From contig CAWGRT010000011.1 of the NCBI GenBank assembly GCA_963825035.1, positions 18,874-82,873 on the forward strand: 64,000 nucleotides of DNA, read 5' to 3'. Positions 2,736 to 57,985 of this stretch are shown here, piece after piece. Position numbers and translations under genes: made by a program. Origin of the DNA: Candidatus Krumholzibacteriia bacterium (lineage in GTDB: Bacteria; Krumholzibacteriota; Krumholzibacteriia; LZORAL124-64-63). The notes below the pieces were generated by a model. The model searched no databases. It was given only the letters and a program-made list of their open reading frames with translations, and was not told where the DNA came from. Positions within the stretch are counted from its first letter, which is position 1, and every line of letters begins with the position of its first letter.

Positions 2736-3397
2736 CTACCGATACAGGCTCTTGATCTCACCCCAGGATGCCGCCGCGACCGGGACCGCGCCGGCGTCCG
2801 CCCAGGCGACGCGGACGCGTCCGGCATACCCGGCCAGGTGGCCGCTGGGGGAGTCCGTCTGGTAGGCGTAGACGTGGACCTCCAGGGCGTAGACGCCCGC
2901 CGGAACGACCACCTCGGCCTGGTCCGGTCCGGTGCCTCGGTCAGCAGCGGCAGGACGGTCCCGTCGGGCCAGGTCAGGGTCGCCGTATGGACGTCGCTGG
3001 AGAGGAGGCCGGCCACCTCGCGCAGCGCAGTCAACCGGGTCTGGACCGCGAATTCCACGGTGCAGGCCAAAGTGGCCCCGTAGTCCGCTCCGGTCACGTT
3101 GGCGGAGTCGATCTCCGGATAGCTGCCGCTGAAGGCGAGGCTGTCGGCGTCGCAGTGCATCAGCCACGGGTGGGGGCAGTCCATGTTGCCGTAGCCGTCG
3201 GCTTCGGTGGCGTGGAAGCCGGCGGCGCCTGCGTCACTGTTCCAGTAGCAGAAGCCGGGGGTCGGCGTCGCGGCGAGCCAGATGTCGTGGGTGAGTTCGC
3301 CCTGCGCCTGCAGGATCGTGGCGCCGTCCCAGGCCAGGGCCGGCAGCGCGGCCATGCCCACGAGGGCGAGGGCGAAGATTGCCGTCTGTCGTGTCAT
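2736..3397 (-). CDS. Secreted hypothetical protein ending in the WGEIKSLYR tag; one apparent frameshift near 2925-2940
   Basis: The N-terminal piece is in ORF 2639..3430 (MTRQTAIFALALVGMAALPALAWDG, a signal peptide, with a GGAGA RBS before the ATG at 3397). The C-terminal piece is in ORF 2736..3167 (...PDQAEVVVPAGVYALEVHVYAYQTDSPSGHLAGYAGRVRVAWADAGAVPVAAASWGEIKSLYR). The frames join at the short repeat ccggaccggacc. Confidence 0.65.
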
Positions 3398-5581: not shown

Positions 5582-5661
5582 ATCGATTTTTTCCTGATGT
5601 CTTGTGATTATTTTCCGGGACGGGTCTCTCTTCAAGCAGCACCCGATGAAGAGGAGTCCCC

Positions 5662-31815: not shown

Positions 31816-32496
31816 TTGACCAGCCGATCCACCCTCGTGGCCGTTGTCGCCCTCGGCCTGGCCGCCGCGGTGCCCGCCCGCGCCGCCTTCCACGTCACCG
31901 TGGTGCCCCCGGAGCAGTGGGGCGCCCCGGATGCCGCCCTGGGCCTGGCGGGCGGCACCGTGGAGGACTTCGAGGACGTCCGGCTGGCGCCGGGGCTGCT
32001 GGTGGAGCTGTCCGCGCCCGACGGCACCTTCACCGGCGCAGCCGCGGCCGCCCTGCCCGCGGTCTTCGACCCCGTGGACGGCGATCCCTACGGCGATGCG
32101 TTCATCATCGGCGTCTGGGACGGCACCCACGTCCTGGTCAACACCCCCACCAACCAGAGCGTGGACTACGGCACCATCGATTTTCCGCGGGTGCGCCTGC
32201 ACGTGCCCGGCGGCGCCTCCCGCCTCGGCTTCTCCCTGCAGCAGCTCACCGGCAACCAGGGCCTGGAGGTCAACGGCGTCTCCCTGGGCCGGGTGGCCGG
32301 GTTGGGGCTCACGCCCGCGCCGGGTCGCAACGGCTACCTGATCGTCAGCAGCGACGACCCCGCCGACCCCGTCACCAGCGTGGCCTGTGGCGGCGGCGGC
32401 GACGCCTTCGTCATCGACCACGTCGCGTACCTGCCGGCCGGTTCCGTGCCCGTCCGATCCGCGACATGGAGCGCCGTGAAGGCCCTGTTCCGCTGA
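31816..32496 (+). CDS. Secreted hypothetical protein ending in the WSAVKALFR tag
   Basis: Lies within ORF 31627..32496. A GGGAGG RBS sits 5 nt before a TTG (TSRSTLVAVVALGLAAAVPARAAF, a signal peptide); an ATG at 31774 is the alternative start. The C-terminus is ...YLPAGSVPVRSATWSAVKALFR-stop. Confidence 0.6.
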   Translation: MTSRSTLVAVVALGLAAAVPARAAFHVTVVPPEQWGAPDAALGLAGGTVEDFEDVRLAPGLLVELSAPDGTFTGAAAAALPAVFDPVDGDPYGDAFIIGVWDGTHVLVNTPTNQSVDYGTIDFPRVRLHVPGGASRLGFSLQQLTGNQGLEVNGVSLGRVAGLGLTPAPGRNGYLIVSSDDPADPVTSVACGGGGDAFVIDHVAYLPAGSVPVRSATWSAVKALFR

Positions 32497-32584
32497 GCCT
32501 TCCCCGGGATCGCCCATCCTGTGTTATGATCATCCATTGTCGTCCAGTGCCGTCATCGCCACCTGGAGGGGGAAGGGGACGATC

Positions 32585-35260
32585 ATGACCGGAGCCCGTG
32601 TGTCGATCCTGCTGCTGGCCCTGGCCGCCGCGACCGCCGCGGGGGCGAAGCCGCAGCCGCAGCCGCGCCTGGTTCCGGTCGCCGAGTACGTCCCGGACGT
32701 ACCGGCCGCCGTCGGCGCCGCCGTCGACACCGTCTACCTGCTGGGAGGCCCCGGCGCCCTGGACGGCCGCTTCGAGGACGCCCTGGGCGACCCCGACCCC
32801 CAGGGCTGGACCAGCGTCGACCTCACCCAGGCGACATCGACCCACTGGCAGGTGAGCACCTTCGAGGCCGACGTCCTGGTCCCGTCCGTGCCCGGCAATC
32901 ATGCCTGGTGGTGCGGCGACTTCTTCGAACCCTGCTTCCCGGACGATCCGCCCGAGGGCTTCGGCAACTACTGGGACGACCGCCTGGTCTGGACGGCCGC
33001 CGTCCCCGCACCCCAGCAGGGCGTCACGGTCCGGGTGCGGGCCCGCGTCGGCTACGGCATCGAACCGGGCGAGGACTGGTTCTCCCTGGATGCCTGGCGG
33101 GGCGACCACTGGGAGGTGCTGCGGCAGTGGACGGGCACGGCCGCCGTCGTGGCCGTGGACGAGTCGGTGGCGCTGGATCCGGCCGACTACGGCGGCGCGG
33201 CCGGGGACGAGGTGATGCTGCGCTGGCATCTCACTACGGACGGCGGCTGGAGCGACGAGGATTGCCAGTGGCCCGGCACCGGCGCGCGCGTGGACTCGGT
33301 CGCCGTCACCTTCGACCAGGGCGGCGGCGAGGCGCTGGTCGGCACGGTGGAGACCTGCGAACCCGGCGATCCGCTGCAGTGGGTGCCGACCCCCCGCGGC
33401 GGCGTAGGGGATTTCGCCGCCCTGCGCGCCGGCCTGGACGACCTGGATCCGGACAGCGACAACGCCTCGCCCCAGTTCGCCTTCGTCGACGACGGCGTGG
33501 TGGTGCCGGGCACCGGCGGCACCCCGTGCGTCACCTGGTGCTACGGACCCGACGGCTGGATCGTCAACCAGGACGGCGGCGTGGCCGACTACTACGCGCG
33601 CGTGTGGAACCACGTCCGTTCGCCGCTGCTGCCGGTGCCCGCCGGCGCCGGGGACGGCGCCTTGCTGGCCTTCGACGTCTACGTCCACGCGCTGCTGGAC
33701 GGGTCGATGGCCTTCGTCGTGGGCGAGTGGTACGTCCGTTCCACCGCCGATCCCGCCGGTCTGACCGGCTGGACCGACTGGCGCAACCGCAATACGGTCG
33801 TCTGGGGCGGCCCCGCCTACGTGCGGGTGCAGCAGGAGGTGAGCGACCTGCTGACACCGGGCGCCGCCTGGGTCCAGGTGTCCCTGGGCGCCCGTGACCT
33901 CGAGCTGGCCTACGGCCACGACGGGACGCCGGCTCCCTACTTCGACAACGTGTCCCTGAAGGTCTATCCGCTGAACGGGCCGAACGTCCTGCTGGTGCGT
34001 CCGGACGGCACGGGCGACGCGCCCACCATCCAGGCGGCCCTGGACATCGCCGCCGTGGGCGACACCATCCGCCTGGCCGACGGAACCTACACGGGACCCG
34101 GCAATCGCGATCTCGTCTTCCAGGGCAAGGACGTCGTGGTGTGCGCGGCGGCGGCCGATCCCGCCCTGTGCGTGGTCGACTGCGGCGGCAGCGAGGCCGA
34201 GCCCCACCGCTTCGGCTACCTGGAAAGCGGCGAGGGAACCGGCGCCCAGGTGCGCGGCCTGACGATCCGCGGCGGCTGGCAGAGCACATACGGGGGAGCC
34301 TTGCGCCTGAAGTCCACCTCGCCCGTGTTCGCCGACTGCGTCTTCATCGGCAACACCGTGGGCAGCAGCACCCAGACCGGCGGCGCCGTCGCCGCGTCCG
34401 GCGGTGCGCCCCGCTTCGAGCGCTGTGTGTTCACGGGCAACCGCGCCGGTTTCGGCGGCGCCGTCTCGGTGCGTGGGAGCGCGACGCCCACGTTCACCGA
34501 CTGCCTCTTCTACGCGAACTACGCCGACCAGGGTGGCGCAGCCCTCGGCGTCTCGAACCTGGGCACGGTGGTCACGGTCACCGGTTGCACCTTCGCCGAC
34601 CACACGTCGTACGGATCGTCCGGCGTGATCGCCCTGTACGGCAGTCCCGTCCTGACCATGGATCACAGCATCGTGGCCTTCAGCGTCAACGGCCCGGCGA
34701 TCTACTTCGACGTCAACGGCACTCCGGACGCGACGCTGTCCTGCTGCGACCTCTATGGCACGCCGGCGGGCACCTGGATCGGCCCCCTGGCGGCGCAGCT
34801 GGGGGCCGACGGCAACATCACCGCCGATCCCTGGTTCTGCGGGGACGGGTTCGGCGACGATCCCTACGGCCTGCTGGACGTCTCGCCCTGCGCCCCGGCG
34901 GCGCCCGGCGGCTGCGGACTGATGGGGGCCCGCCCGGTGGCCTGCATCCACATCTCGCCCGTGCCGGTGGACGTGCCCGGGGCGGCGCCGCCGGCCCTGG
35001 CGGTCCGGCCCAACCCGTTCAATCCGGTCACGGTGCTGTCGTGGACGATGGCCCGGGGCGGGCCGGTGGAGGTGACGATCGTCGATCTGCGCCAGCGTCG
35101 CGTGCGGACCCTGCTGGCGGCCGACCTGCCCGCCGGTCCCCACCAGGTCGCCTGGCGCGGCGACGACGACGCGGGCCGGCCCATGGCCTCGGGCGTCTAC
35201 CTGGCGGTGCTGTCCACGGACGACGGCCGCGCCACCACCAAGCTGGCGCTCATCCGCTGA
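32585..35260 (+). CDS. Large secreted right-handed beta-helix (pectate-lyase-fold) protein with a FlgD-Ig/T9SS-like C-terminal domain
   Basis: Intact ORF with start MTGARVSILLLALAAATAAGA after a GGAGGGGGAAGGGGA RBS region. The beta-helix repeats are GDTIRLADGTYTGPGNRDL, VRGLTIRGG, GGALRL..SPVFADCVFIGN, GGAV...RFERCVFTGN, GGAVSV...TFTDCLFYAN and GGALGV...VTGCTF. The C-terminus is LAVRPNPFNPVTVLSWTM...VEVTIVDLRQRRVRTLL...HQVAWRGDDDAGRPMASGVYLAVL...KLALIR. Confidence 0.85.
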   Translation: MTGARVSILLLALAAATAAGAKPQPQPRLVPVAEYVPDVPAAVGAAVDTVYLLGGPGALDGRFEDALGDPDPQGWTSVDLTQATSTHWQVSTFEADVLVPSVPGNHAWWCGDFFEPCFPDDPPEGFGNYWDDRLVWTAAVPAPQQGVTVRVRARVGYGIEPGEDWFSLDAWRGDHWEVLRQWTGTAAVVAVDESVALDPADYGGAAGDEVMLRWHLTTDGGWSDEDCQWPGTGARVDSVAVTFDQGGGEALVGTVETCEPGDPLQWVPTPRGGVGDFAALRAGLDDLDPDSDNASPQFAFVDDGVVVPGTGGTPCVTWCYGPDGWIVNQDGGVADYYARVWNHVRSPLLPVPAGAGDGALLAFDVYVHALLDGSMAFVVGEWYVRSTADPAGLTGWTDWRNRNTVVWGGPAYVRVQQEVSDLLTPGAAWVQVSLGARDLELAYGHDGTPAPYFDNVSLKVYPLNGPNVLLVRPDGTGDAPTIQAALDIAAVGDTIRLADGTYTGPGNRDLVFQGKDVVVCAAAADPALCVVDCGGSEAEPHRFGYLESGEGTGAQVRGLTIRGGWQSTYGGALRLKSTSPVFADCVFIGNTVGSSTQTGGAVAASGGAPRFERCVFTGNRAGFGGAVSVRGSATPTFTDCLFYANYADQGGAALGVSNLGTVVTVTGCTFADHTSYGSSGVIALYGSPVLTMDHSIVAFSVNGPAIYFDVNGTPDATLSCCDLYGTPAGTWIGPLAAQLGADGNITADPWFCGDGFGDDPYGLLDVSPCAPAAPGGCGLMGARPVACIHISPVPVDVPGAAPPALAVRPNPFNPVTVLSWTMARGGPVEVTIVDLRQRRVRTLLAADLPAGPHQVAWRGDDDAGRPMASGVYLAVLSTDDGRATTKLALIR

Positions 35261-36198: not shown

Positions 36199-39168
36199 CT
36201 ACCAGGGAGTCGACCAGCGGGTGCCCAGGCCCGGCCCCAGCAGCACGGCATTGACGAACAGGCGCTCGCTCTCCTTCATCCAGCGCCGGTAGACGGGATG
36301 GTCCGCGAACAGGATGACCTGGCCGCGGCCCACGCCCTCGCGCACCGCGTAGGCGGTCTGCGCCAGGCGCGCCGCCGCCTCGGGCCACAGCAGGCCGCCC
36401 CGGTGCAGATGGTCGATGTCGCCGAAGCGGGCCGCCGTGCGCACCGGCGGCGCGGCCACGATGCTGTCGTCGCTGCCGAACCACACGGTGGCGTCGTCGC
36501 CCAGGCCGTAGTCCAGCCAGAACTCGGGGTCCAGTTCCACCCGCAGCAGCGCCCCCTGGGGCATGAACGAGCGCAGGCGCGCGTCGGCCCGGCGCAGGTC
36601 CGCCTCCTCGGGCTTCTGGCGGCCGACGGGCAGCACGTCCTTCAGCCAGGCGGCCATGGCCACGGGCCCGCCGGCCAGGGGCGTGCCCTCGTCGTAGCCC
36701 GCGGCGAAGGGTCGGGCGCCCGCGCCCAGGATGGGCGCCACGTCGTAGGGCGAGGCGTCCCGGACGGCAGCGGGGGCGTCGTCGTCCCCGTCCTTCGCTT
36801 TCTTCTTCTCGACCACGCGCAGGCCGGTGGCCGTGGGCCGGCCGGCGGCCTCGGCCTCGGCGGCGGTGATGCTCCACACCGGCGGCGGGAAGTCCTCCAG
36901 GTCCTGGGCGCGGAAGCGGGCTTTCGTCAGCTTGGTCTCCGGATCGGCCAGCATGCGGGCGCCGCCGCCGATGCCGATGGCCGTGCCGCCGCCCTCGATC
37001 CAGCGGCGCAGGGCGTCCAGGCCCTGCTCGCCCAGCAGGTGGCGGTAGCCGGCGGGGCCGCCCCACGCCGGCGGGAACACCAGCACGTTGTAGCGGGACA
37101 GGTCCACCCGGCCGAAGCTGCCGACGTCCAGGGCGCTGAAGCGCAGGTCCAGGTCCTGATCCAGCAGGTGCCAGACCCAGCCGTAGTCGTCGGTGGAGAC
37201 GGGCATGCCCGTCAGCACGCCCACCCGCGGCGCCACCAGCACGTCGAACTCGGCCCCGCCCAGGTCCGGGCCCGCGTCGGGCCGGGAGGTGGTGACCACC
37301 AGGGGCTGCAGGGCATGGTTCGCGGCCACGGCCAGCAGCGCGGTGGGCGTGTCGTCGCCGTTGCCCTCGCGGCGCACCACGAAGGCGCCCCGCCGGAACC
37401 CGATGCCCCCCATGGTGAACGGCTTGGCCGCCACCCGCACGGTGACGCCCCGCTGCAGCAGGTCGGCCAGGGCCGCCTGGGCCGCCGCGGGGTCGCCGTC
37501 GAACACCACCGAGGTCCAGTTGTCGGGCAACGTCCAGCGGGCCGGCGCCGCCGCCGGCTCCTGCCAGGGCCGCCAGTTCCCCGCGGGCACCTTGCCGGTC
37601 CAGCAGGCGGGCACGCCCTGGCCCAGGGCCAGGGACCAGGCGGTGGTGTCGTACAGGCGGCTGCCCTTGCCCTTCTCGATGTACTCGCGCTCGTCCTTGA
37701 AGAATTCGGCCTCCATGGGCACGTGGGGATCGAGGATGGCCCGGGCCAGGTCGGCGGCCGGCTGGTCCAGCCGCACCAGCAGGGTGCCGGCGGGCAGGGC
37801 GCGCTTGCCGCGTTCGCCCGTGCGGGCGTCCACCAGGCCGTCGGTGTCCAGGGGCGCCGCCAGCTCCTGCACCTCGATGCCCTGGGCGACGAGGATGCGG
37901 GCCAGGCCGGCCGTGCGGGCCGGGTGCCGCGGGTCGGGCGGGAACACCCAGGCCCGCCGGTCGCCCTTGCGTCCGGCCGCGGCGGCCTCGCTCCGGGCTT
38001 TGGCGTGATCCGCCACCACCTGGTCCCGGTTGGCCAGCAGCGTGCGCAGGTTGGCGATGGACGAGGTCAACTGGTGATCCACCGCCTGTCCGAAGGTGCG
38101 CACCGTGCCCCCGTGCTTGCGCACCAGGGCGCCGGTGGTCCGGGACATCTCGTAGAGGATGCCGATGGATCCGGTGTAGGAGGCCCACGACGAGCCGTAG
38201 CCCGGGAAGAATTCCTCGTTCCACTCGCCGGAGAAGTAGGGGTAGCCGCGGGCGTCCAGGGCGGCCGCCTGGTCCTTGGAGAACCGCTCCTCCCAGGGCT
38301 CGACGGTGGCCGGCAGCAGCGGGTTGAACGGATGCCGCGCCGGCGGGAACAGGTAGGTGCTGTTGGCGCCCATCTCGTGGCTGTCCACCATGAGCTCGGG
38401 CAGCCAGCGGCCGATCTCCACGGTGCGCCGGCTCTCGGGCAGCACCAGGGTGAACCAGTCGCGGTTCATGTCGAACAGGTAGTGATTGCCGCGCCCCCAG
38501 GGCCAGACGCCCCGGTGGGCCAGGTCGTCCTGGTCAGGGTTGGCCGTGCGGTGGGCGAAGGCCGTGGTCTGGGCCAGGTAGCGGGCGCGGCCGTCGGGGT
38601 TCTCGCAGGGATCGATCAGCACCAGCAGACCGTCCCGCAAGTCGCGGGCGCCCTGGTCCTCGCCCGCCACCAGCCACCAGGCCAGCAGGGCGGCGGCGTC
38701 GGTGCTGCTCAGTTCGTCGCCGTGGATGCCGTAGGCCAGCCAGGCCACCGCCTTGTCGCCGGCCGCGGGAGCGGTGCCGTCCCGCGGGTCCAGGGCGGCG
38801 GCGTGGCGGGCCTTGAAGCCGTCCAGGTCGGCGATGGTCGCCTCGTCCGACACGGCCAGGTACACCAGCGGCCGCCCCTCGTAGGTGCGGGCGAACTCCA
38901 CCAGGGTGGCCCGGGGCGAGGCGTCGGCCAGGGTCCGGAACCAGTCCAGGACCTCCTCCGGTCGCAGGGGACGTGCCGTGGGTTCGACGCCCGTCACCTG
39001 GGACAGGGTCGGCAGGTCCGCCGCAAACTCGGCGCCGGGCAGCAGGGAGGACAGGGGCATCCGGGGCACGCCCTGGTTCAGGGCCGCGGGGGCGGCCAGG
39101 GCCGAGGCCGCGGCAGCGGCGACGAGGAGGGCGGCGAGGACGGCGAGTGGACGGACCAGACGTGGCAT
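36199..39168 (-). CDS. Large secreted M14-family metallocarboxypeptidase-like protein
   Basis: Intact 989-aa ORF with signal peptide MPRLVRPLAVLAALLVAAAAASALAAP. The zinc-site context is VAWLAYGIHGDELSSTDAALLAWWL...LIDPCENPDGRARY and NRDWFTL. Confidence 0.85.
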   Translation of the reverse strand: MPRLVRPLAVLAALLVAAAAASALAAPAALNQGVPRMPLSSLLPGAEFAADLPTLSQVTGVEPTARPLRPEEVLDWFRTLADASPRATLVEFARTYEGRPLVYLAVSDEATIADLDGFKARHAAALDPRDGTAPAAGDKAVAWLAYGIHGDELSSTDAAALLAWWLVAGEDQGARDLRDGLLVLIDPCENPDGRARYLAQTTAFAHRTANPDQDDLAHRGVWPWGRGNHYLFDMNRDWFTLVLPESRRTVEIGRWLPELMVDSHEMGANSTYLFPPARHPFNPLLPATVEPWEERFSKDQAAALDARGYPYFSGEWNEEFFPGYGSSWASYTGSIGILYEMSRTTGALVRKHGGTVRTFGQAVDHQLTSSIANLRTLLANRDQVVADHAKARSEAAAAGRKGDRRAWVFPPDPRHPARTAGLARILVAQGIEVQELAAPLDTDGLVDARTGERGKRALPAGTLLVRLDQPAADLARAILDPHVPMEAEFFKDEREYIEKGKGSRLYDTTAWSLALGQGVPACWTGKVPAGNWRPWQEPAAAPARWTLPDNWTSVVFDGDPAAAQAALADLLQRGVTVRVAAKPFTMGGIGFRRGAFVVRREGNGDDTPTALLAVAANHALQPLVVTTSRPDAGPDLGGAEFDVLVAPRVGVLTGMPVSTDDYGWVWHLLDQDLDLRFSALDVGSFGRVDLSRYNVLVFPPAWGGPAGYRHLLGEQGLDALRRWIEGGGTAIGIGGGARMLADPETKLTKARFRAQDLEDFPPPVWSITAAEAEAAGRPTATGLRVVEKKKAKDGDDDAPAAVRDASPYDVAPILGAGARPFAAGYDEGTPLAGGPVAMAAWLKDVLPVGRQKPEEADLRRADARLRSFMPQGALLRVELDPEFWLDYGLGDDATVWFGSDDSIVAAPPVRTAARFGDIDHLHRGGLLWPEAAARLAQTAYAVREGVGRGQVILFADHPVYRRWMKESERLFVNAVLLGPGLGTRWSTPW

Positions 39169-39338
39169 GAGCAGCTCCCGGTGCGCAGGTGGGCGGGTCG
39201 ATCAGGGCGGCGGCGAATATACCACAGGGGCGCGGCGGTTCGATTGCGGAATCTTGCAACGGCCGGCACCGCGGTCACGCACGCGGGCCCCGACCGTCGC
39301 CGGTCGGGGCCCGCAGCCGTCGGGGGATGTTCAGCGGG

Positions 39339-39940: not shown

Positions 39941-39980
39941 GCCAAAAAGATCCCTCCCCGGCTCCCGGAGCCGGGGAGGG
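39941..39980 (-). terminator. Rho-independent terminator of the 40028..40744 gene
   Basis: Perfect 13-bp stem ccctccccggctc / gagccggggaggg with a 3-nt loop. On the minus strand it is followed by ATCTTTTTGG. It lies 48 nt after the stop. Confidence 0.65.
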
Positions 39981-40027: not shown

Positions 40028-40744
40028 TCAGCGATACATGGCCTTGACCGTACTCCACGCTTCGCGATCCGTGGGGACGGCGCAGTTGATCTGCATGGTG
40101 ATGCAGCAGATGTCGAACAGTTCGCCCAGATCGGCCCCGCACAGGAACGCGGGATAGCCGGCGGGCATGGCCAGCCCCGAGTCGGGCCGCCAGATCAGCA
40201 TGGCGTTGGCGATGGTGAAGGTGATCTCGCACTCGTTGACGCCGGGGCAGTTGGCGAAGTTGCCCGTGAAGGTGATGTTGGACGTGGCGCCCACCGCCAC
40301 GTTCCCCACGTAGGTGATGGTGATGATCACCTGGTAGCTGTTCAGGGCTCCGCTCAGGTCGGCCAGGCCGTCGGCCCAGGTGTGGTCACGCGAGAGCCAG
40401 AACTGACCGCCGGTGTAGTGGGAGATGTAGGTGCGCTGGCCGTTGCCGTTGCCGTCCACCGTGTCGCTGATGAGCACGGCGCCGGTGGCATCGATCTGCA
40501 TGCCGGTGGCCTGCCACTGGGTACCCAGGGCGGCACCATCCCAGGACTGGGCGTTCTGCGTGTTGCCGGGCACGCCCCCCATCACGGGCATGCCGTTGGC
40601 GCCGCACCAGGCTTCGGAAGCCCGGCCGCCGAGCATGGTCCCCGTGGTGGTGGACCAGGTGTCGATGGCGTTGGGGCACTGGGCGAGCGCGGGGCCGGCG
40701 GCGATGATAGAAAGGATGATGGCCGTCAGGATCACTCTGGACAT
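40028..40744 (-). CDS. Secreted Cys-rich hypothetical protein ending in the WSTVKAMYR tag
   Basis: Intact 238-aa ORF with signal peptide MSRVILTAIILSIIAAGPALAQC. The composition is non-GC-biased (N, T, I, Q rich). The C-terminus is ...ITMQINCAVPTDREAWSTVKAMYR-stop. Confidence 0.7.
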   Translation of the reverse strand: MSRVILTAIILSIIAAGPALAQCPNAIDTWSTTTGTMLGGRASEAWCGANGMPVMGGVPGNTQNAQSWDGAALGTQWQATGMQIDATGAVLISDTVDGNGNGQRTYISHYTGGQFWLSRDHTWADGLADLSGALNSYQVIITITYVGNVAVGATSNITFTGNFANCPGVNECEITFTIANAMLIWRPDSGLAMPAGYPAFLCGADLGELFDICCITMQINCAVPTDREAWSTVKAMYR

Positions 40745-40890: not shown

Positions 40891-41655
40891 CTATTCGGAT
40901 ATATTCACGAAATCGGGAAGATTGTCGGGGCCATCCCGGTCCTGGCGCCGCCCTGTCCGCAGCTCGTCCCGTTCGACCCTCTCCAGCCCCGCCGCGTCCC
41001 GGAGCTCGATCCGCCGTCGGTCCACGGAGATCAGGCCCTTGGACGCGAACTCGGCCAGGGTGCGCGACAGGGTTTCCGGCGTGGTGCCCACCATCTGGGC
41101 GATATCCTTGCGCTTGAGCTGCAGGCGCGGGAACGGGGACCAACTGTCGCCGGGCACCCGCCGCCCGTGCAGCAGCAGCAGCACGTCGGCGATGCGCCGC
41201 TTCACCGGCCGCCGGGTCAGCACCATCAGCATGTCCTCCGAATAGCGCAGTTCCCTGGCCATGTAGGCCAGCGCCGCCCGGGCGAAGGCCGGCGAGTGCT
41301 CCAGGGTCTCGAGCACCGCCGATGCCGGGTAGCGGGCTGCGCGGCAGGGTTCGAGGGCCACGGCGGACGCCGCGAGGGTGTCGCCCGCCAGGACGGGCCG
41401 CAGGCCGAAGATGCTGCCGGCACCCAGGAGCCGGATGACCTGGGGGTCGCCCCGTTCGCCCGAGCGGGTCAGCTTGACCGAGCCCTCGAGGATCAGGTTC
41501 ACGCAGTGGGGAGGATCGCCTTCGACACAGAAGATGTGACCGGCGGGATGCGTCTGCACGCGCCGAACTGCGTCCAATCGCAGCTTCACCGCGGGTTCGA
41601 GCATCCCGAAGAGGCCGTCTTCGGGGCGGGGGATCCGGGCAGGATCAGCCTGCAT
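40891..41655 (-). CDS. Crp/Fnr-family transcriptional regulator
   Basis: The cNMP-binding beta-roll is FCVEGDPPHCVNLILEGSVKLTRSGERGDPQVIRLLGAGSIFG. The C-terminal HTH is RKDIAQMVGTTPETLSRTLAEFASKGLISVDRRRIEL. Confidence 0.85.
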   Translation of the reverse strand: MQADPARIPRPEDGLFGMLEPAVKLRLDAVRRVQTHPAGHIFCVEGDPPHCVNLILEGSVKLTRSGERGDPQVIRLLGAGSIFGLRPVLAGDTLAASAVALEPCRAARYPASAVLETLEHSPAFARAALAYMARELRYSEDMLMVLTRRPVKRRIADVLLLLHGRRVPGDSWSPFPRLQLKRKDIAQMVGTTPETLSRTLAEFASKGLISVDRRRIELRDAAGLERVERDELRTGRRQDRDGPDNLPDFVNISE

Positions 41656-41858
41656 GGCGGACCTCCAAAGTTGGCTGGGGGCGGTGGTCCCTCCGGAAGA
41701 TCATTCTCCGGACCGGCCGATCCGCAATACAATTTCCACAATATCGACATTATGGTGTTATCATAGGTTGCGGGAAAAGACAAGGAAATTGAGCGAAATA
41801 AGGCATGTCCCCGCGCCAGGGAGAATTCCAGGATCTCGCGTTGCGCACAGGAGATCAA

Positions 41859-42677
41859 ATGAAAAGGCAAACCATAGGAATCGTGTTCACGCTGGCGCTC
41901 GTTCTGGGCCTGGGCGCCTGGTCCGGCTGCTCCGACTCCACCGCGCCGACGACGCCCGCGGGATCCGGCCGGCTGACCCTTTCCCTGACCGACGCCCCCG
42001 GGGACTTCGATGCGGTCAACCTGGTGGTGACGGGCGTGCGCGCCCATCGCGCCGACGGGGATTCCACCGGTGGCTGGATCACCGTCTGCGACGACACCTT
42101 CACGGTGGACCTGCTGACCCTCGTCGGCGGCCACAGCATGGTGCTGGCGGACACGCTGCTGCCGGCCGGGAACTACACCCAGATCCGGCTGCTGCTGGGC
42201 GACGGTTGCAACGTCGTGGTGGACGGCACGGCCCACGACCTGGAGGTACCCAGCGGCCAGACCTCAGGCTTGAAGCTGAACCACCCGTTCACCTTGGCCG
42301 AGGGGAACGTCTACGCGGCCACCCTCGACTTCGACGCCCACCGCTCCATCCACCGCACCGGCAACGGGCGCTGGATGCTGCGGCCGGTGATCCGGGTGTG
42401 CGTGGATGCGGTCTCCGGCCGGCTGACGGGCCTCATCGATCCGGCGGCGGCGCGGGCCGCGGTCTGGGCCGTGGCCGGCAGCGACTCGGTGCTGGCCTAC
42501 GCCGACACCCTGACCGGCGCCTTCAACCTGGGCCCGCTGGCCGCCGGAACGTGGGACCTGTCGGTGCTGCCCACCGTCGCCGGCTGGGCCGACACCACCC
42601 TGGCGGGTGTGGTCGTCAGTGCCGGTGGGACCACGGACCTGGGCACGGTCGCGCTGACCGCCGTGCCTGCACCCTAG
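41859..42677 (+). CDS. DUF4382-domain lipoprotein
   Basis: Start and lipobox are MKRQTIGIVFTLALVLGLGAWSGCS. The DUF4382 pattern is LSLTDAPGDFDAVNLVVTGV...TVDLLTLVGG...LPAGNYTQIRLLLG...LEVPSGQTSGLKLNHPF...LDFDAHRSIHRTGNGRWMLRPVIRV. Confidence 0.75.
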   Translation: MKRQTIGIVFTLALVLGLGAWSGCSDSTAPTTPAGSGRLTLSLTDAPGDFDAVNLVVTGVRAHRADGDSTGGWITVCDDTFTVDLLTLVGGHSMVLADTLLPAGNYTQIRLLLGDGCNVVVDGTAHDLEVPSGQTSGLKLNHPFTLAEGNVYAATLDFDAHRSIHRTGNGRWMLRPVIRVCVDAVSGRLTGLIDPAAARAAVWAVAGSDSVLAYADTLTGAFNLGPLAAGTWDLSVLPTVAGWADTTLAGVVVSAGGTTDLGTVALTAVPAP

Positions 42678-49012: not shown

Positions 49013-49222
49013 GGGGACACGATAACGGAAATCGGCCTCAGAATGACCGTTTTAAGCGGATATTTTCACTCCTGTTAACTGCTAAACAAACAGCTTCACA
49101 CTCTAGAAACTGTGTGATATCGTATGTGCGAAATGTCGCTAAACTTCACCCGGCGGTGATATCCCGACGCACCAGGCAGCCGGACCAGCCAAGACCCCAA
49201 GCCTCTCCAAGGGGGGAAGCAC

Positions 49223-50350
49223 ATGGAGCCTCTCGATATCCTGCGCGACGGTTCGCGGCGCGTCCTGAATCGCAAGATGGATCGGCGCGAGTTCCTCAAG
49301 GTGGTCACGGCGGCGGCGGCGGCGGTGGGCCTGTCGTCGGCCACGGCGGTGCGCATCGCCGAGGCGGCGGCGGCGGGGCTGAAGCCGTCGGTGATCTGGC
49401 TGCACTTCCAGGAATGCACCGGCTGCACCGAGTCGCTGCTGCGCACCAGCCACCCCGAGCTGGCCGAGTTGATCCTCGACCTGATCTCCCTGGACTACCA
49501 CGAGACCCTGTCGGCGGCCGCCGGCCACCAGGCCGAGAAGTCCCTGCACGACGCCATGGCCGCCAACAAGGGCAAGTACGTGCTCATCGTCGAGGGGGCC
49601 ATCCCGGTCAAGGACGGCGGCATCTACTGCAAGATCGCCGGCAAGACGGCCCTGGACCTGGTGCAGGAGGTGGCCGCGGACGCCGGCGCGATCATCGCCA
49701 TCGGCAGCTGCGCGTCTTTCGGCGGCATCCCCGCCAGCGGGCCCAATCCCACCGGCGCCACCGGCGTGCCCATGATCCTCAAGGACAAGACCGTGGTCAC
49801 CATCCCGGGCTGCCCGGCCAACCCCTACAACCTGCTGGGGACGGTGCTGCAGTTCGTCGCCCTGGGCACCCTGCCCGCCCTGGACGACAAGGGGCGGCCC
49901 AAGTTCGCCTACGCCCGCGTCATCCACGAGGACTGCCCGCGGCGGGCCCACTTCGACGCCGGCCGCTTCGTCGAGCAGTTCGGCGACGAGAACCACCGCC
50001 AGGGCTACTGCCTGTACAAGCTGGGCTGCAAGGGCCCGGCGACCCACGCCAACTGTTCCCTCAAGAACTTCTGCGAGGTGCCGGGGGCCTGGCCCATCGG
50101 CATCGGCCACCCCTGCGTGGGCTGCACCGAGCAGCAGCTGGCCTTCCAGGTGCCCATGCACACCACGGTGGACATCGAGCGGCCGACTCCGCCGGACACC
50201 TACCCGCCCATCCACGCCGACCAGCCCGGGCCCAGCCCGCTGGCCACCGGCCTGGGCGGCGCGGTGGTGGGTGCGGCGCTGGGCGCGGCGTACATGCACT
50301 CGCGGAAGCTGGACGCCGAGCAGCCCGCCGACCCGGAAAAGGAGGAGTGA
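49223..50350 (+). CDS. hybO: [NiFe] uptake hydrogenase small subunit (Tat signal, C-terminal membrane anchor)
   Basis: Intact 375-aa ORF. The Tat signal is DRREFLKVVTAAAAAVG. FeS ligand contexts are WLHFQECTGCTES, GSCASFGG, IPGCPANP, HEDCPRRAHF, YCLYKLGCKGP and HPCVGCTE. The C-terminal hydrophobic helix is LATGLGGAVVGAALGAAYM. Confidence 0.9.
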   Translation: MEPLDILRDGSRRVLNRKMDRREFLKVVTAAAAAVGLSSATAVRIAEAAAAGLKPSVIWLHFQECTGCTESLLRTSHPELAELILDLISLDYHETLSAAAGHQAEKSLHDAMAANKGKYVLIVEGAIPVKDGGIYCKIAGKTALDLVQEVAADAGAIIAIGSCASFGGIPASGPNPTGATGVPMILKDKTVVTIPGCPANPYNLLGTVLQFVALGTLPALDDKGRPKFAYARVIHEDCPRRAHFDAGRFVEQFGDENHRQGYCLYKLGCKGPATHANCSLKNFCEVPGAWPIGIGHPCVGCTEQQLAFQVPMHTTVDIERPTPPDTYPPIHADQPGPSPLATGLGGAVVGAALGAAYMHSRKLDAEQPADPEKEE

Positions 50351-50353
50351 CCG

Positions 50354-51231
50354 ATGGACCGGACCAGACGCGCATTCCTCAAGGGCCTGGCGGCCGCCGG
50401 GGCGGGCGCCGTGGCCTCGACCGCGCCGGCGCTGGCCGACGGAGGGTGTCCGCCAGGCGCCCGCCGACGCCGTCGGCCTGCTCTACGACACCACCCGCTG
50501 CATCGGCTGCAAGACCTGCGTGGTGGCCTGCCACGAGGCCAACGACCTGCCGCCGGACAACCGGCTCGACCCTCTGCACGACGCGCCCACGGTGCTGAAC
50601 GACCGCACCAAGAACATCATCAAGCTGTACGAGGACGGACGGGCACCGGTCCTACGTGAAGCAGCAGTGCATGCACTGCGTCGATCCCGCCTGCGCCGGG
50701 GCGTGCATGATCGGCGCCCTGCAGAAGCGGGAGCACGGCATCGTCACCTGGGACACCAACCGCTGCATCGGCTGCCGCTACTGCCAGGTGGCCTGCCCCT
50801 TCGAGATCCCCAAGTTCGAGTGGTACGCCCGCAGCCCGCGCATCATCAAGTGCGAGCTGTGCAACCACCGGCTGGCCGAGGGCAGGCAGCCCGCCTGCAC
50901 CGAGGTCTGCCCGCGCCAGGCCGTGGTCTTCGGCAGGTACGAGGACCTGCTGGCCGACGCGCGGCAGCGGCTGCGGGACCATCCGGGCCGCTACGTGGAC
51001 AAGATCTACGGCGAGCACGACGGCGGCGGCACCCAGTGCCTGATGGTCAGCCACGTGCCCTTCGCGAAGCTGGGCCTGCCCGACCTGCCCGAGCACTCCA
51101 ACGCGGCGCTGAACCGCAAGGTGCAGCACGGCGTGTACCAGGGCTTCGTGGCGCCGGTGGTCCTGTACGCGGTGCTGGGCGGCGTGATGCTGCGCAACCG
51201 GCGCACCAACGCCAAGCGACGAGGGGGGTGA
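50354..51231 (+). CDS. hybA: Hydrogenase-associated 4Fe-4S ferredoxin-type subunit (HybA-like, Tat signal), at least 2 apparent frameshifts
   Basis: The pieces are MDRTRRAFLKGLAAAGAGAV, YDTTRCIGCKTCVVACHEAN and KQQCMHCVDPACAGACMIGAL...WDTNRCIGCRYCQVACPFEIPKF...KCELCNHRLAEGRQPACTEVCP, followed by a C-terminal TM helix. They lie in ORFs 50354.., 50271.. and 50656..51231. Confidence 0.8.
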
Positions 51232-51234
51232 CAC

Positions 51235-52424
51235 ATGAGCCACGGCAGGCCGGCACCCGTCGGCGGGTCCCTCTGGACCGGCACGACCCGCATCCTCTTC
51301 TTCTTCGCGGTCGTGGGCATCGTCCTGACCGTGTGGCGCTTCATGGTGGGCCTGGGGCCGTCGACGGGCATGTCCGACGGCTATCCCTGGGGCATCTGGA
51401 TCGCCTTCGACGTGGTCACGGGCACGGCCCTGGGCTGCGGCGGCTACGCCGTGGCCTTCCTGGTCTACGTGCTGAACAAGGGCAAGTACCATCCCCTGGT
51501 GCGGCCGGCGCTGCTGACCAGCGCCCTGGGCTACTCGGTGGCCGCGGTGGCCATCGTCGTCGACGTGGGCCGGCCCTGGTTCATCTGGCGCATCCCCGTC
51601 TCGGTGGGCAAGTGGAACCACGGACTCGGCCCTGCTCGAGGTGGCCCTGTGCGTCATGACCTACGTGATCGTGCTGTGGCTGGAGCTGAGCCCCGCGTTC
51701 CTGGAGAAGCTGCAGAGCAAGGCCGCCGATGCGGTCGCGCGCTTCCTGGACCGGATCATGGTCTTCATCATCGCCCTGGGGCTGCTGCTGCCGACCATGC
51801 ACCAGTCGTCGCTGGGCGCGGTGATCATGCTGGCCGGTCCGCGCCTGCACCCCCTGTGGCAGACGGCCTGGTTGCCGGCGCTGTTCCTGATCTCGTGCAT
51901 CGCCATGGGCTACGCCGTCGTGGTGATGGAGTCGGTGCTGTCGAGCCGGGCCTTCGGGCGGCGGCGCGAGGACCGCATGCTGGCCTCGCTGTCGCGGGCC
52001 ATGATCCCGGTGCTGCTGGCCTACGTGGTGCTGCGGCTGGCGGCGATCGTGGCGGCCGGCAAGACGGCCCTGCTCTTCTCGTCCGGCCTGATGAGCGTGC
52101 TGTTCTGGCTGGAGATGGCCGCGTTCCTGGTGCCGGCGGTGGTGTTCATGGTCCGGGGCCGGGACATCCCCGTGGGCTGCATGTACCGGCAGGCGCTGAC
52201 CGTCCTGGTGGGCGGCGCCCTGTACCGCTTCGACTCCTACCTGGTGGCGTTCTCGCCTGTCCCACGGCTGGAGCTACTTCCCGAGCGTGCCAGAGCTGGT
52301 GATGACCGTCGGGCTGGTCTCGCTCGAGGTGTTCCTGTTCATCGTCATCGTGAGGAAGTTCCCGATCCTGAGCGGCACCGACCGCGCCGGCAGCCGCCCG
52401 GTAGACCTGGAGGGTCCCCTATGA
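51235..52424 (+). CDS. hybB: Hydrogenase integral membrane subunit (HybB / NrfD family), at least 2 apparent frameshifts
   Basis: The pieces are ...[51 protein letters not shown]..., then [22 protein letters not shown]...[18 protein letters not shown]...LHPLWQT, then [33 protein letters not shown]. The stop overlaps the next ATG. Confidence 0.8.
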
Positions 52425-56635: not shown

Positions 56636-56655
56636 GGTCCTCCCGGCCCGTCTCC

Positions 56656-57081
56656 TCAGGCGCCGATGATCACCTCGGTCCCGTCACCGTCGACCGGCAC
56701 GGTCGCGCAGCGGCTGCCGCGGTGGTCCGTAGACCGGGCTGCCCGCGGCGTCGAAGCGGCCGTCGTGGCAGGGGCAGACGTAGTGGTCCGGGTCCGGCTG
56801 CCAGGCCACCTCGCAGCCCTGGTGGGTGCACAGCAGCGAGCGGGCGACGACCGTTCCCGCCCCGGCGCAGCACCTCCACCGGTCCTTGCCGACCATGACC
56901 CGGGTGCGCTCGCCCGTCCGGCAGCATGGCCAGGGGCACGGTCACCGGGCGGCCGGCTCGGCCTGCTCGCCGGACCGCCGCAGCCGGCCAGGGCCGCCGG
57001 CAGCAGCACGCGCCGCGCCCGGCGCCGGCGCCGGCGCGCAGGGCGGCGGCCAGGAAGGCGCGCCGGCCGCAGGGCGCTCAT
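56656..57081 (-). CDS. Tat-exported Rieske [2Fe-2S] domain protein, at least 3 apparent frameshifts
   Basis: The Tat motif MSALRPARRAFLAAAL appears after one frame change. The Rieske boxes are CTHQGCEVAWQPDPDHYVCPCHDGRFDAAGSPVYGPP. The C-terminus is TVPVDGDGTEVIIGA-stop. The start overlaps the hypC stop region. Confidence 0.7.
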   Translation of the reverse strand: MSALRPARLPGRRPARRRRRRARRVLLPAALAGCGGPASRPSRPPGDRAPGHAAGRASAPGSWSARTGGGAAPGRERSSPARCCAPTRAARWPGSRTRTTTSAPATTAASTPRAARSTDHRGSRCATVPVDGDGTEVIIGA

Positions 57082-57343: not shown

Positions 57344-57511
57344 GCGGGGACTCCTTTCGCCGGGCGGGACGCGGCGTCGCCGGGTCAATAGTAGCCCCTG
57401 GCGGGCGCGGATTCCACCTGAGGCGTGGGGCGGGCGGGATGGCGCAAGAAATGGGCGGGGCTCCCGAGGGAGACCCCGCTTCGCCTACCGGCCCCGAGTG
57501 GCGGGAATCCT

Positions 57512-57985
57512 TTACCGGTATGCGCTCTTCGGCGGCGCTCCAGGTCACGTCCTCGTTGGGCACGACCGAGCACTCCACCGGCACCGAAGCTTCGAAGGGC
57601 GGCGAGTCGACATGGTTGTCGGCGGTCGGGACCAAGCGTGAAGGTGCCGTGGATGACGAACGGCCCGTACAGGGGGATGATGTCGTCCGTGATCTCGTTC
57701 CAGGACTGGCCCAGGGACACAGGCGCCGTAGTGATCGCCGTCGTCGTCGACCACGGTCGTCTGACCCGTCGTCTCGAGCAGGACGTTGCCCGCCGGGTCC
57801 TCGATGGCGATGTCGTAGGCCAGCGGGGTCGAATCGATCTTGAAATAGATGCGCACCAGGACCTCGGCACTCCACCCCGCGCAATCACCGTCGAAGGTGA
57901 CGGATTCGAAGTGGGTGGCGAACGCCGGACCGGCCGCGAGCAATCCCAGCCCGACGACCAACAGAGTCAAGAGCAAACGACGCAT
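57512..57985 (-). CDS. Small secreted hypothetical protein whose reconstructed C-terminus carries the tag (TWSAAKSAYR-stop); at least 3 apparent frameshifts
   Basis: The signal peptide and first piece are MRRLLLTLLVVGLGLLAAGPAFATHFESVTFDGDCAGWSAEVLVRIYFKIDSTPLAYDIAIEDPAGNVLL (ORF 57545..57985). The next pieces are APVSLGQSWNEITDDIIPLYGPFVIHGTFTL and VPTADNHVDSPPFEASVPVECSVVPNEDVTWSAA. The starting frame then reads KSAYR-TAA at 57512-57514. Confidence 0.5.

What the first reader, a model, noticed from the sequence alone, without database searches (positions are those of the whole stretch)
40028..40744. Shared terminal tag W-[GS]-x-[IVA]-K-[AS]-x-[YF]-R-stop on unrelated small secreted proteins (best exemplar)
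Four proteins in this one window end, exactly at the stop codon, with the same 9-residue pattern:
- ...AVPTDREAWSTVKAMYR (40028..40744)
- ...AVPVAAASWGEIKSLYR (2736..3397)
- ...SVPVRSATWSAVKALFR (31816..32496)
- ...VVPNEDVTWSAAKSAYR (57512..57985, after frame correction)

All four have N-terminal signal peptides and are 150-240 aa long. I see no similarity between them outside the tail. A V-P dipeptide sits 5-8 residues upstream of the Trp in each.

The tail has no hydrophobic helix and no basic cluster. It therefore does not look like a sortase (LPXTG), exosortase (PEP-CTERM and relatives), GlyGly-CTERM or lipobox signal, and it is far shorter than a T9SS C-terminal domain. I do not know a named family for it.

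A modular, position-locked C-terminal peptide on diverse exported proteins is the hallmark of a sorting, anchoring or processing signal recognised by dedicated machinery. Alternatively it could be a terminal beta-strand signal for outer-membrane attachment.
Basis: partly seen in the sequence, partly recalled or inferred. Interest (0 to 1): 0.72.

Follow-up and report, generated by a model that had tools for sequence, protein, structure and literature searches.

The report
New terminal tag on exported proteins
Four unrelated exported proteins in this window end in the same 18-residue peptide, which hundreds of protein families in several uncultured bacterial phyla also carry; it matches no catalogued sorting signal and most likely docks these proteins to a shared partner in the cell envelope.

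Summary
The strict motif occurs three times in the six-frame translation, each time directly before a stop codon (0 hits in 300 shuffles). A fourth copy appears after removing one base. The four proteins share only their tails. The tag is an 18-residue module in fixed register: [C/G]-x-[T/V]-P-[V/T]-[E]-x-x-[S/T]-W-[G/S]-x-[I/V/L]-K-[A/S]-[L/M]-[Y/F]-[R/K]-end.

A profile with no positional information found 324 protein clusters among 1.84 billion representatives. Of the best 150 matches, 139 end within four residues of the C-terminus. A genome scan put the tag in MAGs of Eisenbacteria, Krumholzibacteriota, Latescibacterota and neighbours. About 85% of carriers have signal peptides. No Pfam or NCBIfam model and no paper found covers it.

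AlphaFold predicts a detached short helix on a linker. Homologous passenger domains carry a T9SS-type C-terminal domain or a PEP-CTERM signal instead. The tag can also be tandem, sit just after the signal peptide, or be internal.

Best reading: a new non-covalent docking or anchoring peptide for envelope proteins. No receptor or machinery was found.

The parts
40028..40744 (-). Exemplar gene (238 aa, intact). Layout: signal peptide, beta-rich passenger domain (residues 22-221), 8-residue linker, terminal helix.
   Evidence: ORF. 86 homologues with a conserved tail. AlphaFold2 model with mean pLDDT 90.8. No Pfam or NCBIfam hit. No significant PDB fold match.
40682..40744 (-). Signal peptide of the exemplar: MSRVILTAIILSIIAAGPALA, followed by QCP.
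   Evidence: Sequence. Predicted N-terminal helix 2-20.
40031..40084 (-). 18-residue tag CAVPTDREAWSTVKAMYR. The core W..K..YR is at 40031-40057 and the stop at 40028-40030.
   Evidence: Residues 230-237 are predicted helical, pLDDT about 66, detached from the domain.
39952..39980 (-). Terminator-like hairpin (13-bp stem, then a T-run), 48 nt after the exemplar's stop. The exemplar is therefore probably its own transcription unit.
2736..3397 (-). Second tagged gene (about 220 aa, signal peptide MTRQTAIFALALVGMAALPALA). A 1-nt frameshift near 2920-2940 interrupts it.
   Evidence: The GC3 phase switches once.
2739..2792 (-). Tag GAVPVAAASWGEIKSLYR, followed directly by TAG.
31816..32496 (+). Third tagged gene (226 aa, intact, signal peptide MTSRSTLVAVVALGLAAAVPARA).
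   Evidence: 15 homologues, 14 with a conserved tail and one (P0109) with a PEP-CTERM in its place. AlphaFold2 model.
32440..32493 (+). Tag GSVPVRSATWSAVKALFR, followed directly by TGA.
   Evidence: Residues 213-225 are predicted helical with low pLDDT.
57512..57985 (-). Fourth tagged gene (about 156 aa after repair, signal peptide MRRLLLTLLVVGLGLLAAGPAFA). It has about three frameshifts.
57515..57569 (-). Tag SVVPNEDVTWSAA-KSAYR, readable only if one base (g at 57530) is removed. TAA follows at 57512-57514.

Best explanation
The four tails are copies of a lineage-specific terminal localisation tag of about 18 residues. Sec-exported proteins carry it, both soluble proteins and lipoproteins. 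It occurs in Krumholzibacteriota (the likely source of this window), Eisenbacteria, Latescibacterota and neighbouring candidate phyla.

Anatomy (shown): a spacer in fixed register, [C/G]-x-[T/V]-P-[V/T]-[E]-x-x, and then [S/T]-W-[G/S]-x-[I/V/L]-K-[A/S]-[L/M]-[Y/F]-[R/K] at the protein's end. The tag is not part of the passenger fold. It is predicted to be an N-capped helix of about two turns.

Mechanism (inferred): after Sec export, the peptide docks non-covalently onto a shared partner in the envelope, most likely a receptor protein with a peptide-binding groove. This retains or routes many unrelated small proteins to one place, the outer membrane or cell surface. It works in parallel with the T9SS-type C-terminal domain and the PEP-CTERM signals that the same genomes use on other, larger proteins. 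The receptor and the final location are unknown.
For: Modularity:
- In 76 tagged proteins only the tag columns are conserved.
- 89 tagged ORFs fall into 46 BLAST clusters.
- 324 clusters at 50% identity score E<=0.001 among 1.84 billion representatives.

Terminal position:
- 101 of 126 DNA-pattern matches across 185,579 species genomes are followed directly by a stop, and 118 lie within 6 residues of one.
- 109 of the best 150 profile hits end at the last residue, and 139 within 4 residues.

Export:
- Signal peptides in 76/87 and 65/77 full-length carriers (crude hydrophobic-stretch test); some carriers are lipoproteins.

The tag occupies the slot of known signals:
- L088 has three adjacent CBM paralogues, one tagged and two with a FlgD_ig/T9SS-type CTD.
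- P0109, a homologue of window protein 31816-32496, has VPEP + TM helix + KRR exactly where the tag sits.
- Passengers hit DNRLRE, choice-of-anchor J, and M36 peptidase models named 'rhombosortase-dependent' and 'myxosortase-dependent'.

Free helix:
- Predicted in two unrelated families.

Binding module rather than cleaved signal:
- Tandem copies (P0110 x4).
- A copy just after the signal peptide plus one at the C-terminus (P0112, P0118, P0119, P0176, P0217).
- Conserved internal copies in domain-tag-domain-tag fusions.

Protein partner rather than lipid:
- Near-invariant W, G, K and Y, a small residue at +5, and a fixed 6-residue register to the Pro. Only position +2 is free.
- The tag drifts in parallel in unrelated families of the same lineage: Ser at +1 and V/L at +3 in close relatives of the window for both the P1 family (exemplar gene 40028-40744) and the P3 family (gene 31816-32496), against G and I in distant P1 relatives.
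Against: - No receptor, peptidase or translocon was identified. Nothing recurs next to 120 tagged loci except other tagged genes and T9SS-CTD genes. The window encodes no known sorting enzyme.
- The helix prediction has low confidence (pLDDT 45-66). The helical hydrophobic moment is only modestly above shuffled sequences (0.48 vs 0.35) and not much above the beta-strand value (0.43).
- Multi-copy and N-terminal cases come largely from one lipoprotein family. They are over-represented at the top of a summed-score ranking.
- No carrier organism is cultured and no proteomic data were examined, so cleavage cannot be excluded.
Confidence: 0.42

Rival explanations
1. Cleaved export or sorting signal. 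Dedicated machinery recognises the tag, carries the protein across or onto the outer membrane, and then removes the tag. The machinery could be a T9SS-like route that accepts a minimal signal, or an unknown translocon plus peptidase.
For: - The tag is on exported proteins and is almost always terminal.
- It replaces a T9SS-type CTD or a PEP-CTERM on homologous passengers.
- Tagged genes often lie next to T9SS-CTD genes. The window has two (5650-8079, 32537-35257).
- The [T/V]-P-[V/T]-E start resembles the VPEP of PEP-CTERM.
- TGA stops are depleted after the tag, which fits a need for a precise end.
Against: - The tag has no Ig-like CTD fold, no TM helix and no basic cluster.
- Copies just after the signal peptide, tandem copies and conserved internal copies are hard to reconcile with a signal read from the C-terminus and cut off.
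- About 15% of tags carry 1-6 extra residues after them.
- No candidate peptidase or translocon recurs nearby.
Confidence: 0.25
2. Receptor-free in-plane membrane anchor. The amphipathic W/I/L/Y helix, flanked by Lys and Arg, inserts into a membrane or LPS interface. It would work like the C-terminal amphipathic helices of MinD or PBP5, but on the periplasmic or outer side.
For: - Predicted short terminal helix.
- Interfacial aromatic residues plus two basic residues.
- Helical hydrophobic moment above shuffled sequences.
- Tandem and double-ended copies would add avidity, as is known for weak membrane-targeting helices (own knowledge of MinD).
- Lipoproteins also carry the tag.
Against: - The sequence identity is far stricter than amphipathicity requires: invariant W, G, K, Y and a fixed-register Pro spacer.
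- The tag drifts in parallel across unrelated families within a lineage, which suggests a co-evolving partner.
- Nine residues is short for a stable in-plane anchor.
Confidence: 0.17
3. Covalent tethering motif. An L,D-transpeptidase-type enzyme cross-links the invariant Lys to peptidoglycan or another polymer. The analogy is the C-terminal ...Y-R-K of Braun's lipoprotein.
For: - Lys is invariant in the tag.
- The ...K-x-L-Y-R end resembles ...T-K-Y-R-K of E. coli Lpp. This resemblance is from memory, not tested.
Against: - The last residue is Arg in 77-90% of tags, not Lys.
- The invariant Lys is internal.
- No YkuD-type gene was seen near tagged genes.
Confidence: 0.05
4. Recognition tail for a C-terminal processing protease or carboxypeptidase, serving regulated turnover or maturation rather than localisation.
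For: A 1000-aa Peptidase_M14 gene lies two genes from the exemplar (36202-39201). A Peptidase_S41-like gene sits just upstream of a P1 homologue in L122.
Against: - These neighbours are absent in L121 and L123.
- A terminator separates the exemplar from the M14 gene.
- A degradation tag conserved on hundreds of families is implausible.
- Internal and N-terminal copies are conserved.
Confidence: 0.05
5. Not a feature in its own right: a chance match, a DNA repeat or mobile element supplying gene ends, or the last element of one shared homologous domain.
For: None found.
Against: - 0 hits in 300 shuffles.
- Synonymous differences within the tags and unrelated DNA after the stops.
- Only the tag columns are conserved among 76 carriers.
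- The two modelled passengers are unrelated in sequence, and the tail is detached in both models.
Confidence: 0.01

Closest known systems
T9SS C-terminal sorting domain (type A, TIGR04183 / FlgD_ig-like CTD of FCB-group bacteria)
   Same: It sits at the C-terminal end of Sec-exported proteins with very diverse passengers. It occurs in the same genomes and often in adjacent genes. The same passenger domain can carry either the CTD or the tag (L088).
   Different: The CTD is a folded Ig-like domain of 70-100 residues. The tag is an 18-residue linear peptide predicted as a free helix. It gets no model hit. It tolerates N-terminal, tandem and internal positions. Its carriers are smaller (median 231 aa, against about 540 aa for neighbouring CTD proteins).
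PEP-CTERM / exosortase signal (and the related tripartite signals LPXTG, GlyGly-CTERM, MYXO-CTERM)
   Same: A short terminal signature on diverse exported proteins of one lineage. The tag starts with [T/V]-P-[V/T]-E, which resembles VPEP. A homologue of a window protein carries PEP-CTERM at the same place.
   Different: The tag has no transmembrane helix and no terminal Arg/Lys cluster, which define that whole class. PEP-CTERM proteins coexist with tagged proteins in the same MAGs.
Terminal amphipathic membrane-targeting helices (MinD MTS, FtsA, PBP5/6 C-terminus)
   Same: A very short terminal helix with aromatic and aliphatic residues flanked by basic residues. Extra copies could add avidity.
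   Different: Those helices are conserved as a pattern, not as a sequence, and each belongs to one protein family. This tag is nearly identical across hundreds of unrelated families, has a fixed-register spacer, and acts outside the cytoplasm.
Cargo-loading peptides of encapsulins and encapsulation peptides of bacterial microcompartments
   Same: The same logic: a short, conserved, terminal peptide on a flexible linker directs unrelated proteins to one protein receptor. It can sit at either terminus.
   Different: Those act in the cytoplasm on proteins without signal peptides. There is no sequence resemblance.
Outer-membrane-protein beta-signal
   Same: A C-terminal motif with an aromatic residue near the end, in diderm bacteria.
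   Different: The beta-signal ends in an aromatic residue and is the last strand of a beta-barrel. The tag ends in Arg or Lys, is predicted helical, and follows soluble beta-rich (non-barrel) domains.

Membership tests
T9SS type A C-terminal domain (TIGR04183 / PF13860-like) | Folded C-terminal domain of about 70-100 residues that matches the CTD models | tested here: not met
   No Pfam or NCBIfam hit on the tails of the 4 window proteins or of 76 carriers. The conserved region is 18 residues. Genuine FlgD_ig CTDs are detected in the same window.
T9SS type A C-terminal domain (TIGR04183 / PF13860-like) | N-terminal Sec signal peptide on substrates | tested here: met
   Signal peptides in all 4 window proteins and in 76/87 and 65/77 carriers elsewhere.
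T9SS type A C-terminal domain (TIGR04183 / PF13860-like) | Dependence on T9SS components (SprA/Sov, PorV, PorU) and removal of the signal | not testable with these tools
   Whole genomes could not be profiled, and no such genes lie in the window or the loci examined.
PEP-CTERM / exosortase (also LPXTG, GlyGly-CTERM, MYXO-CTERM) | Signature motif followed by a hydrophobic transmembrane helix and a basic cluster | tested here: not met
   After the [T/V]-P-[V/T]-E start come only 13 residues, including K and R, with no hydrophobic stretch. True PEP-CTERM tails in P0109, L044 and L061 look different.
Outer-membrane-protein beta-signal | The last residue is aromatic; the motif is the terminal strand of a beta-barrel | tested here: not met
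   The last residue is R (77-90%), K, Q or H. The passengers are soluble beta-rich domains and the tail is predicted helical.
Lpp-type peptidoglycan attachment | A C-terminal Lys whose side chain is cross-linked by an L,D-transpeptidase | tested here: not met
   A terminal Lys is present in only about 4-7% of tags. Cross-linking through the internal invariant Lys was not testable.
Amphipathic membrane-targeting helix | A terminal helix with a clear hydrophobic face and low sequence conservation | tested here: inconclusive
   A helix is predicted, but at pLDDT 45-66. The hydrophobic moment at 100 degrees is 0.48, against 0.35 for shuffled sequences. Sequence conservation is much higher than expected for this class.
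Any curated family (Pfam-A 2025, NCBIfam release 20) | A model that covers the tag | tested here: not met
   No family hits more than 5 of 76 carriers, and none maps to the tail.

The most novel reading that the evidence does not exclude
The tag is the address label of a protein-localisation system that has not been described. The system would have its own receptor or machinery and be shared by at least three or four uncultured FCB-related phyla (Eisenbacteria, Krumholzibacteriota, Latescibacterota and relatives). It would handle a substantial share of their small exported proteins, alongside T9SS and exosortase. In scope it would compare with PEP-CTERM/exosortase or the T9SS CTD when those were first recognised from sequence alone.
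Probability: 0.55. Interest if true: 0.88.

Novelty: new variant of a known kind. Interest (0 to 1): 0.78.

Why it matters
Terminal sorting and anchoring signals (LPXTG, PEP-CTERM, the T9SS CTD) each revealed a dedicated envelope machine, and each now predicts the surface proteome of whole phyla.

This tag marks hundreds of otherwise unannotated 'hypothetical' protein families in phyla with no cultured members. In this window it marks 4 of roughly 12 exported proteins, by my own rough count from the ORF lists, which I did not check formally.

If it has a receptor, it would:
- define a new envelope-localisation route;
- give a one-line rule for predicting which proteins of these organisms act at the cell surface, including carbohydrate-binding, beta-helix, cupredoxin and peptidase domains;
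- provide an 18-residue portable docking tag for engineering.

The sequence evidence assembled here makes the question directly testable.

Tried and rejected
- Chance match: rejected.
- DNA repeat or mobile element that supplies gene ends: rejected. The tags differ at synonymous sites and nothing downstream is conserved.
- Shared C-terminal globular domain: rejected.
- Known sorting-signal models: no hits.
- Fold of the exemplar passenger: Foldseek against the PDB found nothing significant.
- Machinery by neighbourhood: all-against-all clustering of 761 ORFs from 120 loci plus the window found no recurrent untagged partner. What recurred was T9SS-CTD proteins, kinases or TPR proteins, a radical-SAM enzyme (4 loci), a sulfatase-TPR protein (3 loci), a response regulator and a pseudouridine synthase.
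- Window annotation found no sortase, exosortase, rhombosortase or T9SS gene.
- A tail-profile search through the word-indexed protein search failed.
- Relatives of the two frameshifted window genes in metagenome contigs: none found.
- Cluster look-up of 10 tagged representatives gave no informative names.
- Literature: six full-text searches found nothing on the motif or on a sorting signal of these phyla.
- Three extra 20-kb loci around P1 homologues held no further tags. The density of 4 per 64 kb seen here may therefore be above average.

Full report
OBSERVATION

The strict pattern W[GS]x[IVA]K[AS]x[YF]R occurs three times in the six-frame translation of the window: 40031-40057(-), 2739-2765(-) and 32467-32493(+). 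Each time the next codon is a stop. None of 300 shuffled windows contained a single match, and stops make up only 1.2% of six-frame codons.

The fourth tail is readable after deleting one base (g at 57530). The sequence ...tgg agc gcc gcc [g] aag agc gca tac cgg taa then gives WSAAKSAYR-stop.

- Gene 2736-3397 carries a frameshift near 2920-2940. The GC3 phase switches exactly once there, so it is one gene with an indel.
- Gene 57512-57985 needs about three corrections.

Other genes in the window are also broken, which suggests an indel-prone assembly rather than decay of these particular genes.

All four proteins start with a classic signal peptide. BLASTP finds similarity only in the last 17-32 residues. 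At the DNA level the four tags differ at synonymous positions, and the sequence after the stops is unrelated, so this is not a DNA repeat.

ANATOMY

I aligned 113 non-redundant tags from other genomes on the Trp. The result is a gapless 18-residue module:

| Position (from Trp) | Residues |
|---|---|
| -9/-10 | C or G (Cys within -9..-11 in 46%) |
| -8 | P/A/S |
| -7 | T/V/S (85%) |
| -6 | P (53%) or A/S |
| -5 | V/T/A |
| -4 | E (36%), R, Q |
| -2, -1 | S/T |
| 0 | W |
| +1 | G |
| +2 | any |
| +3 | I/V/L |
| +4 | K |
| +5 | A/S |
| +6 | L/M |
| +7 | Y/F |
| +8 | R (77%; also K, Q, H) |

Positions -1, 0, +1, +3, +4, +6 and +7 of these 113 tags were fixed by the search pattern. The residues shown for +1, +3, +6 and +7 come from the independently found family tails.

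All four window tags have V-P at exactly -7/-6.

AlphaFold2 models were made for two unrelated carrier families.
- The exemplar family, called P1 here (51-sequence alignment, mean pLDDT 90.8): a beta-rich passenger at residues 22-221, a linker at 222-229, and a helix at 230-237 with pLDDT about 66.
- The family of gene 31816-32496, called P3 here: a different beta-sandwich, then a helix at 213-225 with low pLDDT.

In both models the tail is detached from the domain. On a helical wheel, W0, I3 and Y7 form one face, K4 and R8 flank it, and only position +2 is free to vary. That covers more of the wheel than a lipid-facing stripe would need (inference). The helical hydrophobic moment is 0.48, against 0.35 for shuffled tags, which is only modest support.

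HOW WIDESPREAD, AND WHERE

A degenerate DNA pattern for T-W-G-x-I-K-x-L-Y-[R/K/...], without a stop codon, was scanned over one genome for each of 185,579 species.
- Of 126 matches, 101 are followed directly by a stop and 118 lie within six residues of one.
- The six clearly internal matches come from unrelated organisms (Lachnospiraceae, an archaeon, Patescibacteria, Nautiliaceae) and look like chance.
- The true hits are MAGs labelled Eisenbacteria (about 40), Latescibacterota, Krumholzibacteriota, Zixibacteria and 'Gemmatimonadota', plus many unnamed bacteria. None is from a cultured organism.

An 18-position profile carrying no positional information was run against 1.84 billion representative proteins.
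- It found 324 clusters at E<=0.001.
- Of the best 150, 109 end at the very last residue and 139 within four residues.

The window itself is probably from Krumholzibacteriota. The named homologues of two of its proteins come from Krumholzibacteria MAGs, at 62% and 68% identity.

WHAT CARRIES IT

- Among 76 full-length carriers, only the tag columns are conserved; mean column identity is 5%.
- 89 tagged ORFs fall into 46 BLAST clusters.
- Most have no Pfam hit. The rest hit Beta_helix, lamin-tail domain, NosD, CHRD, cupredoxin, CAP, MAM, CBM4_9, CBM96 and others.
- NCBIfam adds DNRLRE, choice-of-anchor J, POMP repeats, and M36 peptidase models named 'rhombosortase-dependent' and 'myxosortase-dependent'. 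No model covers the tag.
- By a crude hydrophobic-stretch test, signal peptides are present in 76 of 87 and in 65 of 77 full-length carriers.
- Some carriers are lipoproteins.
- Carriers are small: median 231 aa, against about 540 aa for neighbouring T9SS-CTD proteins.
- Tagged genes often form tandem arrays (L120 x5, L016 x4, L086 x3).

THE TAG SITS WHERE KNOWN SIGNALS SIT

- In L088, three adjacent paralogues share a CBM-like domain. One ends in the tag and two continue into a FlgD_ig/T9SS-type C-terminal domain.
- P0109 is a 37%-identical homologue of window protein 31816-32496. It has ...SGVPEPGTIGFAMLGILALGIWKRR..., a textbook PEP-CTERM, aligned exactly to ...GSVPVRSATWSAVKALFR.
- T9SS-type CTDs (about 20) and PEP-CTERM tails (2) occur in the same loci. 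The window has two FlgD_ig proteins, at 5650-8079 and 32537-35257.

The tag is therefore a third terminal signal used by these genomes. It is not a degenerate copy of either of the other two.

NOT STRICTLY C-TERMINAL

Among the profile hits:
- P0110 has four tandem copies, and P0117, P0122, P0142 and P0143 have two.
- P0112, P0118, P0119, P0176 and P0217 have one copy right after the signal peptide and another at the C-terminus.
- P0114, P0146, P0166, P0243 and P0254 are domain-tag-domain-tag fusions whose internal copy is still conserved, although its last basic residue is usually lost.
- About 15% of genome hits carry 1-6 residues after the tag.

This behaviour is typical of binding or anchoring modules, where avidity matters. 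It is awkward for a signal that must be read from a free C-terminus and cut off. Caveat: these cases come largely from one lipoprotein family, and a summed score ranks multi-copy proteins first.

A SHARED PARTNER?

Close relatives of the window organism have Ser at +1 in 33-55% of tags and V/L (almost never I) at +3. This holds in both unrelated families P1 and P3. Distant P1 relatives have G (94%) and I (83%). Three of the four window tags have W-S. Parallel drift across unrelated families of one lineage, together with the strict sequence and the fixed-register spacer, points to a co-evolving protein partner rather than a generic lipid surface. This is an inference.

MACHINERY

None was found.
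- The window encodes no sortase, exosortase, rhombosortase or recognisable T9SS component.
- No untagged family recurs next to tagged genes beyond 3-4 of 120 loci.
- The exemplar is followed by a strong terminator (39952-39980) and appears monocistronic.
- A Crp/Fnr regulator and a DUF4382 gene flank the P1 family both here and in an Eisenbacteria genome. That speaks to the function of this one passenger, not of the tag.
- An M14 carboxypeptidase (36202-39201), and an S41-like peptidase in L122, lie near P1 genes. This is not consistent across loci.

VERDICT

The best-supported reading is a new, lineage-specific docking or anchoring peptide of about 18 residues for Sec-exported envelope proteins (confidence about 0.4). 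The rivals:
- a cleaved sorting signal for unknown machinery (about 0.25);
- a receptor-free amphipathic membrane anchor (about 0.17);
- covalent tethering, or recognition by a protease (about 0.05 each).

The tag fails the defining tests for the T9SS CTD, PEP-CTERM-type signals, the OMP beta-signal and Lpp-type attachment. No curated model and no paper found describes it.

The decisive work is genome-wide co-occurrence profiling, peptide-receptor complex prediction on a closed genome, and metaproteomic evidence for retention or loss of the tail. None of these could be done with the tools at hand.

Noticed in passing
window 2920-2940; 57512-57985 (including base 57530); about 58970 within 58167-60102: The assembly looks indel-prone. 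Two of the four tagged genes are frameshifted. An AMP-binding/acyl-CoA ligase gene also appears to change frame mid-way. Several long ORFs in the window are chimeric.
   Followed up: partly
window 5650-8079(+) and 32537-35257(+): Two large exported proteins end in a FlgD_ig / T9SS-type C-terminal domain. The second starts 41 nt after the tagged gene 31816-32496. The organism therefore uses at least two kinds of terminal signal.
   Followed up: yes
window 36202-39201(-); L122 7481-9718: A 1000-aa Peptidase_M14 (carboxypeptidase) lies two genes downstream of the exemplar. A Peptidase_S41-like gene sits just upstream of a P1 homologue in L122. Both act on C-termini, but the linkage is absent in L121 and L123, and a terminator intervenes in the window.
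   Followed up: partly
window 40894-41655(-), 41802-42674(+); L123 9027-9749, 6308-6925: A Crp/Fnr-type regulator and a DUF4382 protein flank the exemplar family both here and in an Eisenbacteria genome. This is conserved synteny across phyla. Ferritin/rubrerythrin and superoxide dismutase genes are nearby, which hints at a redox-related role for this passenger.
   Followed up: no
P0109 (homologue of window 31816-32496); L044 4523-4951(-), L061 3328-3741(-): PEP-CTERM tails (VPEP + TM helix + RRR/KRR) occur on a homologue of a window protein and on small ORFs in two tag-bearing MAGs.
   Followed up: partly
genome loci L001-L120: The stop codon after the tag is TAG 60, TAA 21, TGA 20. For untagged ORFs of the same loci the counts are TGA 249, TAG 156, TAA 58. 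TGA seems to be avoided after the tag. The control set contains some spurious ORFs.
   Followed up: partly
P0111 (925 aa): A tape-measure-like protein with six repeats of ...GWSALKALYRWSPLG... scored second in the profile search. It has no signal peptide, and I judge it a chance look-alike rather than a tag carrier.
   Followed up: partly
L130 (3156-3184), L131 (7673-7701), L132 (218-246), IMG/VR contigs: Three of nine pattern matches in viral contigs look like genuine terminal tags (...TWGGIKAFYR-stop, ...TPVESKTWGTIKQLYRR-stop, ...TTWGSIKAFYR-stop). They may be proviral or misassigned host DNA, or phage proteins that use the host's tag.
   Followed up: no
L121 10001-10720 and 10903-11622: The exemplar family occurs as two tandem tagged paralogues next to multihaem cytochrome genes and an Rnf cluster in a Krumholzibacteriia MAG.
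   Followed up: no
window 49160-54123 and 55790-57388: A NiFe hydrogenase small and large subunit cluster with Fe-S subunits, and hyp maturation genes (a HypC-like MCLGIPGRI start at 56942-57388). These lie immediately upstream of the fourth tagged gene.
   Followed up: no
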